From: Alphaproteobacteria bacterium
Lineage (GTDB): Bacteria; Pseudomonadota; Alphaproteobacteria; Bin95
NCBI GenBank assembly: GCA_963665325.3
Contig: OZ224045.1
Span: 1,888,001 to 1,952,000 of the forward strand
Direction: 5' to 3'
DNA length: 64,000 bases
Under the pieces are notes generated by a model. It was not told the origin of the DNA and ran no database searches. It worked only from the letters and a program-made list of their open reading frames with translations. The position numbers and the translations under genes were made by a program. Positions 29,487 through 35,490 of the stretch are shown piece after piece (the stretch's first letter is position 1; every line of letters starts with the position of its first letter).

Positions 29487-30503
29487 CTAACTATCCGGAA
29501 TCGTGTCTTGTAAAGCGTCGGAGATTCGCTTTATTTGCGCGGCGGCGTCTTCTATGACCCGCTCCTGTTCGACGCCGGCCTTCAGCCGAATGGGAATGCA
29601 CGGTCTTTCATTGGGAACTTTCACGTCCGTGAAGCTTCCACAAATCATTTCGAAAGCGTCGACGGTGCCATGCTGGGGCACCAACCACAACGGCGAGATT
29701 CCATGATCGCGCCATATCTTGAAGACAATCGCTAGAGATAGTTCAAACTTGTCGTGCGTACGGAAATACCGGCGGATATAATCGAAAGTAGCAGTAGGCA
29801 TATAGCCTTTTGTATCAGCTATTCCGTCGTCCACGAGCTTGTTTACGATCCCATTTATCAATCCGATGTAGTTCATTAATCGGCGCACTATCTCCTGATC
29901 GGTGACTTCATCTTCGCGCAGCGGCAGGAATGCCTCGGAGTCAGTCCAGTTCGTCAGCGCCTGTAACTGGAGGAGGTCGGCCCTAACCTCGTCATGCCCC
30001 TTGGAACGGGCAGCGTCCAGTAATGTCTCCAGGACATATTTCCAACTGGCGACCAGCATAGTCTTACCGCCGACACGGGCGCGATTGCCGGCCGCATCCT
30101 TCCATTCGAGTCCCGCGTCACTGCATCGCGCCCTGAGTTCGTGCCAGACCGTCGAAATTCTCTGCTCGGGAACGATGAACACAAGGGCTGACGGAGGGTC
30201 TTCTACGAGGTGGCCGAGATAAGACACGGGTTGCGCGTCGGTCAGCCCGGCCCAGAATTTGTTCTCGACGAAGACCCGCACACAACCGTTGCTGTCATGG
30301 ATCGTAAGGTCCGGTTGGCCCTCTCCATGTTCCAACTCGGCCTCGATGCGCCCGGGCTCGAACTCGATATCTGCGTCTCGCAGCATTTCGACGAACGCCT
30401 TGGCGATGTCCGGTTTCGATTTCAGTATGTAGGCCAGAGCCTGCGTCGCGGCGGGCTCGTTCTGTAGCGCCCCTCCAAGAACGACATGCGCCAACACGCT
30501 CAT
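29487..30503 (-). CDS. PD-(D/E)XK nuclease family protein
   Basis: QPDL...FVENKFWAGLTDAQPVSY (PD..ExK, Q..Y); visibly lower GC than its neighbours. Confidence 0.75.
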   Translation of the reverse strand: MSVLAHVVLGGALQNEPAATQALAYILKSKPDIAKAFVEMLRDADIEFEPGRIEAELEHGEGQPDLTIHDSNGCVRVFVENKFWAGLTDAQPVSYLGHLVEDPPSALVFIVPEQRISTVWHELRARCSDAGLEWKDAAGNRARVGGKTMLVASWKYVLETLLDAARSKGHDEVRADLLQLQALTNWTDSEAFLPLREDEVTDQEIVRRLMNYIGLINGIVNKLVDDGIADTKGYMPTATFDYIRRYFRTHDKFELSLAIVFKIWRDHGISPLWLVPQHGTVDAFEMICGSFTDVKVPNERPCIPIRLKAGVEQERVIEDAAAQIKRISDALQDTIPDS

Positions 30504-31024
30504 AGAGCTTACCCCCCGTTCTGTCGGTCCAGAGGCTTTCCGCCGGATGGCGGGCGGCTCGACCGGACCGGGCCGTGCCGGAGCCGCATCGGACGGCATT
30601 TCGGGCCGGACTGCAACCCTGCCCTGGTGAAGATGGTATTTTGTTCCAGGAATTATGAAATAATTCTCCATAAAGGCTAGACGTCAGGGCAACCAGCCAC
30701 TATATAGGACTACACGGAGCGGCATCCGGAGGCCGCCCCGTCCTCCGCGTCGGCGCCGGCGCGAAAAAATGCCCCTGAGAAACGCATGGGAGAGGTGCGT
30801 CCTGCGTCTCGCGCGCGCAATCAGGCGCGCGAGCCGCGCCGCCGCGAAGCGCGCGCGGGCGGGCACAGGCGCGGCTCGCGCAGGATACGCGCGAATCAGG
30901 GTCCCGCCGCACCGGGAAGCCGGGCGGAGGGACGAACGGAACGGAGTGGAACGAATCGCGATGGAGGAACGATCATGCAGCATACCCCTCTCCGTCACCC
31001 CGGCCGGAGGTCCGCATGCCTCTT

Positions 31025-31126
31025 GCGTCACCCCGGACGGCGCGCCAGCGCCGAGCCGGGGTCTCCGGACGAAGGGTTGCCCTTGTTGCACGAAGCCCCG
31101 GCTTCCCCGCTCGGGGGCGGGGACGG
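31025..31126. repeat. REP-like palindromic element
   Basis: cgtcaccccggacgg...gagccggggtct followed by gaagccccggc...ggggacg; partial copy cgtcaccccgg at ~30993. Confidence 0.45.
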
Positions 31127-31234
31127 GCGCGGTCCTGGGCGACGCAAAGGGAACGCGCACCTGCATCCTGAGCAGTTACAATAGGATATGAGCCATCCGC
31201 ATGCGGATCATGACATCTCTCGAGTAACTAACGC

Positions 31235-32611
31235 TCACGCCATGGCCCTATCACCATCGGGCGCTTGCATGTCCTGGGCGGGGTGGATCAGTTGGTAGCC
31301 GAGGGTTCGAGCCTTGCGCCGCAGGTTGGCGAGGGAACGGTCGATGCGCCGTTTTTCGTAGGCTTGCATGCCTTTTTCGACATATTGCTCACCCCGCGTC
31401 ACTATCAGATAGATCAGGCAAGCCAGTTCGCGGGCGGTCGCGGTTATCGCGACGGGAGTGTCCTTTCGGGCGAGCCGGGCGCGATGTTTGGCGCCGATGA
31501 AGGTCTGGCTCCTTCGTGCCGACATGGCTGCCATGCGCAGGGCCTGTCCGACCGGGTTGACCACCTTGTGCGTCCGGCCCGGCAAAGGCTTGCCGCCGCT
31601 GATCCTGGTGCCCGGCGCCACCCCCAGCCAGGAGCAGAAGTGTTGGGCGGAAGGGAAGGCGGAGAAGTCCGGGCCGATCTCGGAAGCGATCGTCAGAGCG
31701 GTTCCGGGACCGATGGTCGGGATCGCGGTCAGGTCGGTGCCCATCATGGCGGTCAGGGCCACGGTCAACGCCTTGTCGGTCATGGGGCCGACCGCGCGGA
31801 GTGTTTCGTGGGATGCGTCACCGCCGCCCGGCCCGTCCGGTGGCGTCAGATCGTCGATCTGCTCCGCGATCCGCGCCTCGCAGTCCTCGATCTGCCGGTC
31901 GAGGAAGTCATAGCGCTGCACGGCCTGCTCCAGGGCGAAGAGATGCTCCTCGCGCCAGGTGCCTTCCAGGCTCGCGGCGATTGTGTCCGCGCTGGCCTTG
32001 ATCCGCCGGTGCCGGAACGATGCCAGGCGCTGCGGGTCGCGTTCGCCGTCGACGATCGCCCGCAGGATCTTCATGCCGGTCTGCCCCGTGATGTCGGCGA
32101 TCGCCGAGTCCAGCCGGACATTCATCTCGGTCAGCGCCTTCTGCATGTGCTGCACGCAGCGCGAGCGGTCTTCAGTCAGGCGCTTCATCTGGCGCACATA
32201 GGAGCGAAGCGGGCAGACCGCATCGCCAGGACGGAAGGCGCCCCGCAGCAACCCGTAGGACAGAAGCTGCCAGATCCACTGGCAATCGAGCACGTCGCTC
32301 TTGCGACCGGCAATCTGCTTCGTCATCCGCGGGGGCACCAGGAGCACCTCGAAGCCGGCGCGTTCCAGCACCTCGTAGACCGGGATCCAGTAAACCGAGG
32401 TCGACTCCATCGCCACCTTCGTCACGCCGCACGACGAAAGCCAGTCCGCCATCGCCCGCAGATCGCAGGTGAAGCCGCCGAACGCCCGGACCGGGTCCGA
32501 AGTGCGCGCCGGATCGACGGCCACGAAGTGACGGTCCTTACCGATGTCGATCCCGGCGCAATCCGGGTTCACAACCCTCAACCGCTGCCTCTTCCCGGTC
32601 TTGCGCGCCAT
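31235..32611 (-). CDS. IS110 recombinase/transposase (458 aa)
   Basis: GIDIG, AMESTS, KSDVLD (DEDD tetrad); IPTIG; FCSWLGVAPG..ISGG. Confidence 0.95.
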   Translation of the reverse strand: MARKTGKRQRLRVVNPDCAGIDIGKDRHFVAVDPARTSDPVRAFGGFTCDLRAMADWLSSCGVTKVAMESTSVYWIPVYEVLERAGFEVLLVPPRMTKQIAGRKSDVLDCQWIWQLLSYGLLRGAFRPGDAVCPLRSYVRQMKRLTEDRSRCVQHMQKALTEMNVRLDSAIADITGQTGMKILRAIVDGERDPQRLASFRHRRIKASADTIAASLEGTWREEHLFALEQAVQRYDFLDRQIEDCEARIAEQIDDLTPPDGPGGGDASHETLRAVGPMTDKALTVALTAMMGTDLTAIPTIGPGTALTIASEIGPDFSAFPSAQHFCSWLGVAPGTRISGGKPLPGRTHKVVNPVGQALRMAAMSARRSQTFIGAKHRARLARKDTPVAITATARELACLIYLIVTRGEQYVEKGMQAYEKRRIDRSLANLRRKARTLGYQLIHPAQDMQAPDGDRAMA

Positions 32612-32642
32612 GCTGGTCCCCATTTTGTGTGCCGGTGCGGAC

Positions 32643-32787
32643 GGGGAAGAACCACGCAACAATGCCCAATCTCTCGAACGAGGTCGCGGCGAACCGCGCC
32701 ATCAGTGACAGAAGCCGATCGTGGTTCGGGCCAAGCTCATGAACGGGCGCTACATGCACACCAGTGATTCTCCGGCCTCCATTCCCC
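32643..32787 (-). ncRNA. Putative bridge RNA of the IS110 element
   Basis: Closing stems GGGGAA/TTCCCC and GAACCACG/CGTGGTTC; two loops TCAC-TG(G/A)...hairpin...GTT-guide; the guides match the element junctions. Confidence 0.7.
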
Positions 32788-33203
32788 AGACCGACCTCAA
32801 ATCACAACACCGCCGCCAAGGCCACAAGGCCCCGTTACTTGCGCGACAGGGCCCACGCCCCGCGCGGGTGGGTGCTCATGACACTTCCGCAGGGGGTTCG
32901 CTGCATGCAGGGGCCGGTCGCGGGAAGATCGGAACAAAAACGGATTGAAACGCGATGAGGGAGCGGCATTCGGGATGTGGAGAAACTGGGGTTCGGAAGG
33001 ATGGGGCTGCCGCCGCGAAATCTTCTCTCCCGCGCGCGGGCTACCGGATTCACACTTCTCCGCCCGGTGGCGTCGCATCGCATGTTCACCAACCTCACGC
33101 CCCGGCCCCGGACCGCAGCCCGGGGCAAGCTACCCTCGCAGGCGAGGGAGGGAGACAGACAGCGATCTCATGTCCGAAAGGACCACAGGACATGCGTCAC
33201 GAG

Positions 33204-33245
33204 CATGGGAATCATGACAGACCATGACATCCCATGACACTTCCG
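33204..33245. repeat. Three CATGACA heptamers at 10-bp spacing; second copy of the IS target motif
   Basis: atCATGACAgacCATGACAtccCATGACActtccg. Confidence 0.8.
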
Positions 33246-33345
33246 GGGGCGTGTTGCCGCAGTCGTGCCGCGCAATCTCCACCGGATGCCGGCCGCCGGT
33301 GGTTCTCCCCCGAAGGGCCGTCGGATCGTCCGGGTCGAATCGCCC

Positions 33346-35490
33346 CTAAGCCGCCGGTGCCACCCGGCAGGGGATGCCCTTGAAGTGGGGGATGCCTTGC
33401 TCGCGGTCGAGGAAATCCTCGTCGTCGGGGCAGAGTTGGGCGTCGGCCATTTCCCAGGCGCTCTCGAGCCCGACCTCCGGCAGCCACCAGCCATGCGGAA
33501 TCCGCACCAGGCCCCTCTGCATGTCGTCGCGGACGGCGGCCTTCATGTGCACGCGCCCCTGCGCCGTTTCGGCGACGGCGGGCTCGCCGTCCGCTATGCC
33601 GGCTTCGGCAGCATCGTCGGGGTGAAGGAAGAGCAGGGGCTCAGGCGCGCGGGCCCGCAGGGCTGCGATATGGCGGTGGCCGGTCTGGAAATAGGCGTCC
33701 TCGCGCAGGCCCGTGAACAGGCGGAGCGGCATGTTTTCGGGCGCCGCCGGCTCCTCGCGCCAGTAGGGCAGGGGGTCGAAGCCGAGCTCGGCCAGCACGG
33801 AGGACGAAAGCTCGACCTTGCCGGACGGCGTGGCGAAGCCCGTCTCTTCGTATTTCCGGAACTGGAGGCCGTCCGTATGCAGGGCGTGCTGCCGGGCGAA
33901 GCTGTCGAAATCCATGCCGAGGGCCGCCACGCGGTGATCCAGCACGGCGTCCGCCGTTTCCCACGGAAAATGGTTGCCGAGGCCGAACCGGACCGCCAGG
34001 CCGCGCCAGAAATCGTAAACGCTGCGCGCCTCCCCGGGCGGCTCCGTGGCCTGCTGCGAGGTGCGGCAAAGTGCGGTCCAGCCAAATCCGTCCGCCAGCG
34101 CCTTGCGCTCCGTCCAGGCATCGCCCGGCAGGATGTAATCGGAGAGCGCGGCCGTCGGCGTCTTCATGTGCTCGAAGGTGACGAGAAGGTCCTGGTTCAG
34201 GAGCGCCCTCTGGATCAGCTGCATGTTGGCGAAGCTGAGCAGCGTGTTGTTGCCGAGCGCGAAGAACGCCTTGACCGGATAGGGCTCGCCGTCCGCCATC
34301 GCCCGGAACACCGCCGACGGCGTGGCCATGTAGCAGCCGGAGACGATGTTGGCGTATCGCCGGCCCCATACGCGGAGCGTCGGCTCTTCCAGGGGTGCGG
34401 CGCCGCGATAGGTGAACACCGGATGGGTGTCGGACCCCAGCTGCTTGGCCTTCTGCGCTTCCGGCAGCGCGTCGTGAAGCTCCAGGTCCGTCTCCGGCAC
34501 GATGCGCGGGTGGAAGCCGTGCAGCACATCGCCGCCCGGAACGTCGAGATTGCCGCAGATGGCGCGCAGGATCGCCTGCAGCCGGATGGCGGAGGTCGAA
34601 TTGCGCTGCTGGTCGGTGATCGGCGACCACGGGATCACTGCGGGACCCGACTGCGCATAGAGGCGCGCGGCCTCGGCGATCTGGTCAGGCGCAACGCCGG
34701 TGATCTCCGCGACCCGGTCCAACGGAAACTCGTTGACGCGCGCACGGAGTTCGTCGAACCCCGCCGTCCACCGCTTGACGAAATCCCGGTCCCAGAGGCC
34801 TTCGTCCATGATGACCTTGAGCCATCCGAGGCACATGGCGGCGTCGGTGCCGACCTTGAGAGGCAGCCAGATGTCGGCGAGCTCGGCATTCTCCGACCGG
34901 CGCGGATCGAGCACGATCAGCTTCGCGCCGCGCTCCTGTGCGCGGCGGATGGCGTTGTATTCCGGCGTCCAGGAATGCGGCTTCGGATTGTGCCCGAACA
35001 GCACGATGCACTGCGTCTTGGTGAAGTCCGGATAGGGGAACCAGCCATAGACCAGTCGGTTGACGGCGGCCGTATTGCCGGCGCAGAGCGCCACGCCGGA
35101 AATCCAGTTGGGCGAGCCGACAAGGTTCATGAAGCGCCGGCACATGCCGTTGTCGGTCTGCGTGTTCCAGGAACTCGTCGAGACCGCGAACCCCTCCGGT
35201 CCATAGCGGTCGACAACCCGATGAAGGCGTTCGGCGATGTCGTCGAGCGCGCTGTCCCAATCGACCCGCTCCCATTCCCCGGAGCCGCGCGGCCCCTTGC
35301 GGCGGAGCGGATGCAGCACCCGGTCGGGATGAACGAAGCCGGAGGGCGCATGCACGCCCTTCATGCAGATATTGGCGCGTCCCGGCCTCGGGTCCATCGC
35401 CTTGACCCTGGTGACCTGCCCCCCTTCGGTCTCGACCGTAACCTGGCAGTAGATGTCGCAGGATGAGCAGAGCGCGCGCGCTTCGGGCAT
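33346..35490 (-). CDS. Bis-MGD Mo/W enzyme, acetylene hydratase-like
   Basis: CSSCDIYC..CMK 4Fe-4S motif, RRFMNLVGSPNW, LCAGNT, IPWSPITDQQRNS, ILPGDAWTER, GLRED, LDREQGIP. Confidence 0.88.
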   Translation of the reverse strand: MPEARALCSSCDIYCQVTVETEGGQVTRVKAMDPRPGRANICMKGVHAPSGFVHPDRVLHPLRRKGPRGSGEWERVDWDSALDDIAERLHRVVDRYGPEGFAVSTSSWNTQTDNGMCRRFMNLVGSPNWISGVALCAGNTAAVNRLVYGWFPYPDFTKTQCIVLFGHNPKPHSWTPEYNAIRRAQERGAKLIVLDPRRSENAELADIWLPLKVGTDAAMCLGWLKVIMDEGLWDRDFVKRWTAGFDELRARVNEFPLDRVAEITGVAPDQIAEAARLYAQSGPAVIPWSPITDQQRNSTSAIRLQAILRAICGNLDVPGGDVLHGFHPRIVPETDLELHDALPEAQKAKQLGSDTHPVFTYRGAAPLEEPTLRVWGRRYANIVSGCYMATPSAVFRAMADGEPYPVKAFFALGNNTLLSFANMQLIQRALLNQDLLVTFEHMKTPTAALSDYILPGDAWTERKALADGFGWTALCRTSQQATEPPGEARSVYDFWRGLAVRFGLGNHFPWETADAVLDHRVAALGMDFDSFARQHALHTDGLQFRKYEETGFATPSGKVELSSSVLAELGFDPLPYWREEPAAPENMPLRLFTGLREDAYFQTGHRHIAALRARAPEPLLFLHPDDAAEAGIADGEPAVAETAQGRVHMKAAVRDDMQRGLVRIPHGWWLPEVGLESAWEMADAQLCPDDEDFLDREQGIPHFKGIPCRVAPAA

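What the first reader, a model, noticed from the sequence alone, without database searches (positions are those of the whole stretch)
32612..32883. IS110 non-coding end folds into a two-loop bridge-like RNA whose guides match the element's own junctions
Seen: on the recombinase strand the leader reads GGGGAA..GGCC[GGAGAATCAC-TGG-hairpin-GTT-CATGAGC]..GGCC-GAACCACG[..CTTCTGTCAC-TGA-hairpin-GTT-CGAGAGAT]..CGTGGTTC-TTCCCC. The closing stems pair 32649-56 with 32720-27 and 32643-48 with 32782-87. The segments after GTT equal the junction sequences: gctcatga (32735-42) = 32874-81, and atctctcga (32669-77) = 31215-23. Both contain the proposed CT core. Known: IS621 bridge RNAs have target- and donor-binding loops of similar layout. 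Inference: this is an intact RNA-guided recombinase system, here with a long (458 aa) IS110 recombinase.
Basis: partly seen in the sequence, partly recalled or inferred. Interest (0 to 1): 0.8.

Follow-up and report, generated by a model that had tools for sequence, protein, structure and literature searches.

The report
Bridge RNA of an IS110-family element
The non-coding leader of this insertion sequence encodes a two-loop guide RNA that matches both its insertion site and its own end, a known kind of RNA-guided recombinase system, here arranged in an unusual way.

Summary
Window 31217-32876 (minus strand) is an intact IS110-family element: a 458-aa DEDD/Ser recombinase preceded by a 265-nt left end. 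A second copy in the same genome is 100% identical.

A 165-nt core of the left end folds as an outer stem enclosing two internal loops. In 19 related elements, 98.6% of pair cells form standard pairs, and 7 of 31 pairs show two-sided changes.

- **Loop 1** is hypervariable and tracks the flanking target. Its 3' side equals left flank plus core in 14 of 17 families. Its 5' side pairs with the right flank (permutation p<0.0002).
- **Loop 2** is conserved. Its 3' side tracks the right end of the element.
- **The core** is AG on the RNA-sense strand (CT opposite). It becomes AA in both loops and both junctions in a distant lineage.

Three things differ from IS621:
- The guide order is the one reported for IS1111 seekRNAs, although the RNA lies upstream of the gene.
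- The 5' side of the donor loop has no identified partner.
- The window's own 5' target guide fits its two sites poorly, so these look like half-match insertions.

Evidence of expression is weak. I file it as a variant of a known kind.

The parts
31217..32876 (-). Whole IS110-family element, counted with a core dinucleotide (CT on +, AG on -) at both ends; 1660 bp
   Evidence: The second copy in the same genome is 100% identical over exactly this span and differs outside it.
31235..32611 (-). Recombinase gene, 458 aa (stop codon included)
   Evidence: Pfam DEDD_Tnp_IS110 (E 8.7e-22) and Transposase_20 (E 5.3e-14). D22, E69, D106, D109 and S338 align with the catalytic residues of IS621. The predicted fold's best matches are IS621 (E 1.7e-10) and ISCro4.
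32630..32795 (-). Bridge-RNA core: an outer stem enclosing the target loop and the donor loop (three-way junction)
   Evidence: Covariance model R1 scores 157.5 bits here. The structure is kept in 19 related elements with compensatory changes.
32767..32773 (-). Target loop, 5' guide (GGAGAAU), followed by the constant CAC at 32766-32764
   Evidence: In 18 families this 7-nt segment pairs antiparallel with the sense strand of the right flank, guide position 7 with flank position 1. Score 63.5 against a permuted 42.8, sd 4.4, p<0.0002. In the window only 2 Watson-Crick pairs and 2 wobbles form.
32735..32742 (-). Target loop, 3' guide: UCAUG (32742-38), core AG (32737-36), handshake C (32735)
   Evidence: Identical to left flank + core + first nt of the element. 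In 17 families 81 of 85 positions are identical and 14 families are perfect, against a permuted mean of 29.4. The nt after the core equals the first nt of the element in 17 of 17.
32705..32719 (-). Donor loop, 5' strand (AUCGGCUUCUGUCAC); conserved, partner unknown
   Evidence: Nearly invariant across families. No complementarity to either end next to the core. Its resemblance to left-end positions +21 to +32 is not significant (p 0.10).
32669..32677 (-). Donor loop, 3' guide: UCGAG (32677-73), core AG (32672-71), then AU (32670-69)
   Evidence: Identical to the last 5 nt of the right end plus core. It tracks the four right-end variants TCGAG, TCAAG, TCGGG and TTGAG: 84 of 85 positions, 16 of 17 families perfect.
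31217..31223 (-). Right-end donor arm (sense UCGAG-AG) including the core at 31217-18
31224..31229 (-). Right-end copy of a short sub-terminal inverted repeat (sense AGTTAC)
   Evidence: Covaries with its left-end partner in four sequence types across families.
32834..32839 (-). Left-end copy of the inverted repeat (sense AGTAAC), 36-41 nt inside the left end
32796..32874 (-). 5' part of the left end (G+C-rich hairpins, conserved GTCGCG..AGTAAC); role unknown
32877..32884 (-). Left target flank (sense GTGTCATG), one unit of a 10-bp-periodic TGTCATG array
31209..31216 (-). Right target flank (sense ATGTCATG), the next unit of the array

Best explanation
This is an intact, probably recently active IS110-superfamily insertion sequence that uses a bridge (seek) RNA encoded in its left end.

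The RNA is on the recombinase strand. Its 165-nt core forms an outer stem that encloses two internal loops, each interrupted by a small hairpin.

**Loop 1 selects the target.**
- Its 3' side (UCAUG-AG) pairs with the antisense strand of the left flank plus core. One further nt (C) matches the first base of the element, like the handshake guide of IS621.
- Its 5' side (7 nt, followed by a C opposite the core G) pairs with the sense strand of the right flank.

**Loop 2 holds the donor.** Its 3' side (UCGAG-AG) pairs with the antisense strand of the element's right end plus core.

Recombination crosses at the shared dinucleotide, AG on the sense strand and CT on the strand bound by the 3' sides, as in IS621. 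It joins an excised RE-AG-LE junction to TGTCATG-AG-ATGTCATG sites in a dispersed repeat array.

**Shown:** the structure with its covariation; guide/flank and guide/end covariation; the ends; the catalytic residues.

**Inferred:** that the RNA is made, binds the recombinase and guides recombination; that a circle forms.

The guide order (top-strand complement first) is that of IS1111 seekRNAs, although the RNA lies upstream of the gene as in IS110-type elements.
For: **Protein.** Both IS110 Pfam domains are present. All five catalytic residues align with those of IS621 and are invariant or nearly so in 41 homologues. The best fold matches are IS621 and ISCro4.

**Ends.** Two copies are 100% identical over 1660 bp and lie in different flanks. 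Head-to-tail RE-AG-LE junctions occur in relatives.

**Structure.**
- 31 pairs in 6 helices, with 98.6% of 586 cells paired against 94.8% in shuffles (0 of 500 reach it).
- 27 cells changed on both sides against 9.5 (0 of 500).
- Slid controls pair in 39-51% of cells.
- G-U pairs (for example 35:56 in 19 of 19, and 79:153 as UG/CG/UA) fit only the sense strand.
- Model R1 finds the RNA upstream of the gene in 25 of 29 loci searched. It also finds it in three cultured-strain plasmids whose proteins are about 48% identical (E 2e-7 to 8e-7).

**Guides.**
- Loop 1 3' side against the left flank: 81 of 85 positions, with 13 distinct 5-mers.
- Loop 1 5' side against the right flank: p<0.0002 in one register only.
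- Loop 2 3' side against the right end: 84 of 85.
- In Dinoroseobacter and Roseivivax elements both loops and both junctions read AA instead of AG. Their loop 1 5' guides differ G/C where their right flanks differ C/G.
- Copies are inserted exactly at the DNA that encodes another copy's loop 1 3' guide (L007, L039, L043).
Against: - No transcript is demonstrated. Contigs from RNA libraries of one study cover 32648-32828 and 32667-32883 at 94-97% identity, but they come from relatives and DNA carry-over is not excluded.
- No sigma-70-like promoter or terminator was found in 32550-32950.
- No Rfam family matches.
- The fold energy is no better than shuffles.
- The window's own 5' target guide pairs with only 2 of 7 flank positions plus 2 wobbles.
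- Three unoccupied sites identical to the occupied one exist.
- The donor loop's 5' strand matches nothing at the left end, so donor recognition is only half explained.
- The families compared are related to one another, so the counts are not independent events.
Confidence: 0.85

Rival explanations
1. The element is a stranded, no longer mobile copy. The RNA structure is inherited but the guides have drifted, so nothing is guided today.
For: - The 5' target guide fits the flank at 2 of 7 positions plus wobbles.
- Only 2 copies exist in 5.6 Mb.
- At least three identical unoccupied half-sites exist, and one site (G000:C1:2429037) fits both guides with one wobble.
- No promoter is predicted.
Against: - The two copies are 100% identical over 1660 bp in different flanks.
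- The reading frame and catalytic residues are intact.
- A 98%-identical element in another genome (L010) sits in the same kind of site.
- One-arm (half-match) recombination is reported for IS621 (passages read).
Confidence: 0.08
2. Only loop 1 is a guide, making this a target-seeking seekRNA. Loop 2 is a protein-binding scaffold, and the element's ends are recognised by the protein and the sub-terminal inverted repeat rather than by RNA.
For: - The 5' strand of loop 2 is conserved but has no complementary partner at either end.
- The first 7 nt of the left end vary among families while loop 2 does not.
- A covarying inverted repeat links right-end positions -12 to -8 with left-end positions +37 to +42.
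- Siddiquee et al. describe short seekRNAs that carry only target matches (passages).
Against: - The loop 2 3' side follows every right-end variant seen: TCGAG, TCAAG, TCGGG, TTGAG, ATGAA, ATGAG, ATAGG, TTAGG-AA and TCAGG.
- It changes its core together with loop 1.
Confidence: 0.06
3. The leader is an ordinary 5' untranslated or regulatory region, and the matches to the junctions are chance or DNA-level terminal repeats.
For: The fold energy is not better than shuffles. An 8-mer or 9-mer match in a leader of this size is not very improbable taken alone.
Against: - Flanking host DNA differs in every family, yet it is mirrored inside the element in 14 of 17 families.
- There are compensatory changes in five helices.
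- The protein is homologous to RNA-guided recombinases.
Confidence: 0.01

Closest known systems
IS621 / ISEc21-type (IS110 group) bridge RNA
   Same: - A DEDD + Ser recombinase.
- The RNA is encoded in a long left end upstream of the gene.
- Two internal loops, the first for the target and the second for the donor, each with an inner hairpin.
- Each 3' side ends in AG pairing with a CT core, followed by a handshake nt matching the other DNA.
- The 5' guide is about 7 nt plus core, and the 3' guide is 5 nt plus core.
   Different: - Relative to the gene, the strands are swapped. In IS621 the 5' side is identical to left flank plus core. Here the 3' side is (against 31, 62).
- An outer stem encloses both loops.
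- The donor loop's 5' side does not match the donor.
- The protein is 458 aa against 326, with about 90 extra residues between the RuvC and Tnp parts.
- The proteins are only distantly related in sequence (E 1.4e-5).
IS1111-family seekRNA / bridge RNA (ISEc11, ISPa11, ISKpn4)
   Same: - Guide order: the segment complementary to the top strand precedes the bottom-strand match (passages).
- Sub-terminal inverted repeats are present, with a 7-bp extension beyond one of them.
[quoted passage not shown]
   Different: - The non-coding region is upstream, not downstream, of the gene.
- The inverted repeat is 5-9 bp, not 11-13 bp.
- The other extension is 36 bp, not 3 bp.
- The protein is about 458 aa, not about 340 aa.

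Siddiquee et al. mention exceptions with an upstream region (ISMtsp17). In the passages I read, their guide order is not described. Figures and supplements were not seen.

Membership tests
IS110 superfamily DEDD recombinase | N-terminal RuvC-like DEDD domain and C-terminal Tnp domain | tested here: met
   PF01548 at 78 bits (cut-off 29) and PF02371 at 52.8 bits (cut-off 21.3).
IS110 superfamily DEDD recombinase | Catalytic D, E, D, D and Ser | tested here: met
   D22, E69, D106, D109 and S338 align with IS621 D11, E60, D102, D105 and S241 (residue roles taken from passages). They are conserved in 41 homologues.
Bridge RNA, IS621 type | Structured RNA in the long non-coding end with two internal loops | tested here: met
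Bridge RNA, IS621 type | Both sides of the target loop covary with the target flanks and include the core | tested here: met
   The core changes in concert in L086 and L088.
Bridge RNA, IS621 type | Both sides of the donor loop pair with the donor (right end and left end) | tested here: not met
   The 3' side matches the right end. The 5' side matches neither end.
Bridge RNA, IS621 type | [quoted passage not shown] | tested here: not met
   The order is reversed relative to the gene orientation (against passages).
Bridge RNA, IS621 type | RNA expressed, bound by the recombinase and required for recombination | not testable with these tools
   Only contigs from RNA libraries of relatives.
IS1111 family | Top-strand complement lies 5' of the bottom-strand match in the RNA | tested here: met
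   the definition comes from the passages.
IS1111 family | Long non-coding region downstream of the gene | tested here: not met
   The left end is 265 nt and the right end 18 nt.
IS1111 family | Sub-terminal inverted repeats of 11-13 bp, with 7-bp and 3-bp extensions | tested here: not met
   The covarying repeat is 5-9 bp, with extensions of 7 bp (right end) and 36 bp (left end).

The most novel reading that the evidence does not exclude
This lineage has thousands of metagenomic homologues, and members occur in Dinoroseobacter, Roseivivax and Burkholderia plasmids. It may be a third architectural class of RNA-guided DEDD recombinase elements, with these features:
- The bridge RNA lies upstream of the gene but has IS1111-type strand order.
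- Both loops sit inside a three-way junction.
- RNA reads the donor on the right-end arm only.
- The left-end arm is recognised by something else. Candidates are the covarying inverted repeat 37 nt inside the end, the extra roughly 90 residues of the long recombinase, or an RNA-RNA contact of the conserved donor-loop 5' strand.
- The core dinucleotide slips at the right-end junction, leaving (AG)n tracts.
Probability: 0.3. Interest if true: 0.6.

Novelty: new variant of a known kind. Interest (0 to 1): 0.45.

Why it matters
Bridge and seek RNAs are the basis of a new class of programmable recombinases, and the natural range of their designs sets what can be engineered.

This family shows that guide order and the position of the RNA gene are separable. 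It uses a compact rule of 5+2 and 7+1 nt. It gives natural examples of retargeting, for instance the G/C guide change matched by a C/G flank change between two Roseobacteraceae plasmids, and a target loop redirected to the element's own junction.

It also records in genomes the consequences of one-arm (half-match) recognition: insertions into guide-coding DNA, and head-to-tail arrays.

Members in cultured strains make these points testable. For the genome itself it is an ordinary mobile element with two copies.

Tried and rejected
- **Rfam.** An E-value search of 30500-33500 gave no match.
- **Promoter and terminator scan** of 32550-32950: none found.
- **Fold energy against shuffles:** uninformative.
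- **Alternative registers** for the loop 1 5' guide (position 6 or 8 opposite flank position 1): not significant, p 0.10 and 0.19.
- **Loop 1 5' guide read as identical to the flank:** rejected by inspection.
- **Donor loop 5' strand.**
  - Complementarity, wobble allowed, to any place in the element found only itself and one 8-mer inside the gene (32259-32266), which I take as chance.
  - Identity to left-end positions +21 to +32 scored 99 against a permuted 92.1, p 0.10.
  - Pairing with the sense strand just after the left-end inverted repeat gives wobble-rich, inconsistent matches by eye. I leave it as a lead only.
  - In L077 the strand is complementary to left-end positions +4 to +11 (8 of 8), but this does not hold in the other families.
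- **Two nt after the core in loop 2 as a handshake guide for the target:** 10 of 34, about chance.
- **RNA evidence.** Four RNA-library runs were laid. They are contigs, so no start, end, strand or level can be read. Parts without cover mean nothing. One contig ends at 32828 next to letters that I recall as sequencing adapter, which I do not count as an RNA end.
- **The best-fitting two-arm site** (G000:C1:2429037) is a single AT-rich intergenic place, not in an array, and is unoccupied. The three TCATGACATTCTCC hits were not all read. The one I fetched looks like coding sequence.
- **Names for the protein family:** only 'IS110 family transposase'.
- **Supplements and figures** of the papers were not seen. 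They may already show elements of this layout.

**Selection to disclose.** In one search the right flank used for the L020 family was that of copy L023, the best-fitting of five copies seen. L027 was left out of the tables for lack of a recognisable left junction. L069 was left out for lack of a right end.

Full report
**What is in the window.**
Between 31217 and 32876 lies a 1660-bp element on the minus strand. It holds a 458-aa gene (31235-32611) with both IS110 Pfam domains. The gene is preceded by a 265-nt non-coding left end and followed by 18 nt.

A second copy in the same genome (G000:C1:1706708-1708415) is 100% identical over exactly 31217-32876 and differs outside, apart from one extra CT at the 31217 end.

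Both copies sit between two units of a 10-bp-periodic TGTCATG array. With up to 2 mismatches the genome has 153 tandem two-unit sites, against 0 for the reversed pattern. Uninterrupted TGTCATG-AG-ATGTCATG sites exist. On the recombinase strand the target is therefore ..GTGTCATG-AG-ATGTCATG.. and the donor junction is ..TTACTCGAG-AG-CACCCACC...

**Structure.**
The search for related loci confirmed 485 relatives, of which the best 80 were kept as 78 loci. Nineteen distinct left ends were aligned (A1).
- RNAalifold recovers an outer stem, a closing stem and inner hairpin for loop 1, and the same for loop 2. It shows two-sided changes at 8:167 (10 sequences), 9:166 (4), 23:69 (2), 21:71 (1), 78:154 (5), 76:156 (1) and 105:120 (4).
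- For my 31-pair structure, 98.6% of 586 cells pair against 94.8% in shuffles (0 of 500). Cells changed on both sides number 27 against 9.5 (0 of 500). Partners slid by 1-3 columns pair in 39-51% of cells.
- Invariant or frequent G-U pairs fit only the recombinase strand.
- A covariance model (R1) finds exactly two matches in the own genome, the two copies.
- It finds a match upstream of the gene in 25 of 29 sources searched. No match at E<=0.001 came from L017, L019, L074 or L080, and L080 lacks upstream DNA.
- With filters off it finds matches in three plasmids of cultured strains whose proteins are about 48% identical: Burkholderia vietnamiensis G4 pBVIE04 at E 1.8e-7, Roseivivax at 2.4e-7 and Dinoroseobacter shibae pDSHI01 at 8.3e-7.
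- Fold energy alone is unremarkable and Rfam has no match.

**Guides.**
Loop 1 is hypervariable on both sides and loop 2 is conserved.
- **Loop 1, 3' side.** In 17 families with both junctions defined, the 5 nt before AG are identical to the last 5 nt of the left flank at 81 of 85 positions. Fourteen families are perfect and there are 13 different 5-mers. The permuted mean is 29.4 and the maximum 53.
- **Handshake nt.** The nt after AG equals the first nt of the element in 17 of 17 families (16 C, one T). Among the distant families it agrees in L075 and L077 (T) but not in L073 or L079/L081.
- **Loop 2, 3' side.** It equals the last 5 nt of the right end at 84 of 85 positions and follows its variants. 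The one exception (L007, G for A) would still give a G-T wobble.
- **Loop 1, 5' side.** The 7-nt segment pairs antiparallel with the sense strand of the right flank, position 7 opposite flank position 1. The score is 63.5 against a permuted 42.8 (sd 4.4; 0 of 5000). Runs of 4 or more pairs occur in 7 of 18 families. Neighbouring registers are not significant. See Tried and rejected for one choice of copy.
- **Core.** In the Dinoroseobacter and Roseivivax elements both loops read AA where the others read AG, and both junctions carry AA. Their loop 1 5' guides differ G/C where their right flanks differ C/G.

**Polarity.**
[quoted passage not shown] The RNA is transcribed from the left end, whose junction is LT-RD (passages).

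Here the segment identical to left flank plus core is on the 3' side. The physical scheme is preserved: the 3' side ends in AG, pairs with CT, and is followed by a handshake nt. The site, however, is inverted relative to the genes.

Siddiquee et al. report just this difference of order between IS1111 seekRNAs (top-strand complement first) and the IS110-type ISEc21. They place the non-coding region downstream in IS1111 and upstream in IS110, with a few exceptions such as ISMtsp17 (passages). The present family combines IS1111 order with an upstream RNA. In the passages I read this combination is not analysed. Searches brought no other description, but figures and supplements were not seen.

**What does not fit.**
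1. **Donor loop 5' strand.** The strand (CUUCUGUCAC) is nearly invariant, while the first 7 nt of the left end vary among families. I found no convincing partner.
2. **Inverted repeat.** A short inverted repeat does covary. Right-end positions -12 to -8 pair with left-end positions +37 to +42 as GTTAC/GTAAC, TTTTAC/GTAAAA, TGTTCC/GGAACA and TGTTTG/CAAACA, and the repeat reaches 8 of 9 positions in L086. It resembles the sub-terminal repeats of IS1111, but it is shorter and lies 36 nt from the left terminus.
3. **The window's own 5' target guide.** GGAGAAU pairs with its right flank at only 2 positions plus 2 wobbles, in both copies and in the 98%-identical L010 element. One-arm 'half-match' recombination is reported for IS621 (passages) and would explain this.
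4. **Expression.** It is not shown.

Half-match recombination would also explain two further observations in relatives. Copies are inserted into the DNA encoding another copy's loop 1 3' guide (L007, L039, L043). Head-to-tail arrays occur (L022, L026, L030-32 and many L033-family loci).

**Protein.**
phmmer finds IS621 (8wt6) at E 1.4e-5. D22, E69, D106, D109 and S338 align with its catalytic residues. About 90 extra residues lie between the two domains and about 50 at the C-terminus.

An AlphaFold model (mean pLDDT 66.7) has IS621 (E 1.7e-10, TM 0.41 on the target) and ISCro4 as its best PDB matches. The word-based search scored 7788 proteins at E<=1e-10 among the 8000 candidates it examined, almost all unnamed.

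**Verdict.**
The finding is real and correctly read as an RNA-guided IS110-superfamily element. It is a variant rather than a copy of the IS621 design. For this genome it is an ordinary mobile element. Its interest lies in the family's layout and in the open question of how the left-end arm of the donor is recognised.

Noticed in passing
window 31180-31216 and 32877-32920; G000 genome-wide: The genome carries a dispersed repeat made of 10-bp-periodic TGTCATG units next to short GCATGC-type palindromes. With up to 2 mismatches there are 153 tandem two-unit matches, against 0 for the reversed pattern. Its function is unknown. It is the insertion site of this element here and in the MAG holding L010.
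   Followed up: partly
L068:~2925-2950; L020, L021, L023; L059; L064; L079; L082; second copy L002: Extra copies of the core dinucleotide stand at the right-end junction only: 11 in L068, 3-4 in the L020 family, 3 in L064, 2 in L059 and L079, and 1 in L082 and in the window genome's second copy. This suggests slippage or repeated strand exchange at the core.
   Followed up: partly
L036-L048, L054, L056 (OZ253557.1); L030-L032; L022, L026; L075, L077, L078: Head-to-tail tandem copies are joined RE-AG-LE with a single core. This is the same junction expected for the excised circle.
   Followed up: partly
L007:~1100-1250 and ~2930; L039, L043:~1060-1200 and ~2890: A copy is inserted exactly at the AG of the DNA that encodes another copy's loop 1 3' guide. 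The guide-coding DNA therefore acts as a one-arm target mimic.
   Followed up: partly
L077, L078 (OZ241893.1), RNA at ~1287-1465: In this variant the loop 1 3' guide (AUAGG-AG) equals the loop 2 3' guide and the element's own right end, and the copies stand in tandem. The target loop looks redirected to the element's own junction.
   Followed up: no
L086 (Dinoroseobacter shibae pDSHI01) and L088 (Roseivivax plasmid): Related elements use an AA core (TT on the other strand) and insert at ..CCTAAAA-AA-G.. sites. Two near-identical elements differ by one base in the 5' target guide and by the complementary base in the flank.
   Followed up: partly
window 31265-32767 (+): A 500-aa open frame runs antisense through the whole recombinase gene. 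I take it to be a by-product of the high G+C content. It was not examined.
   Followed up: no
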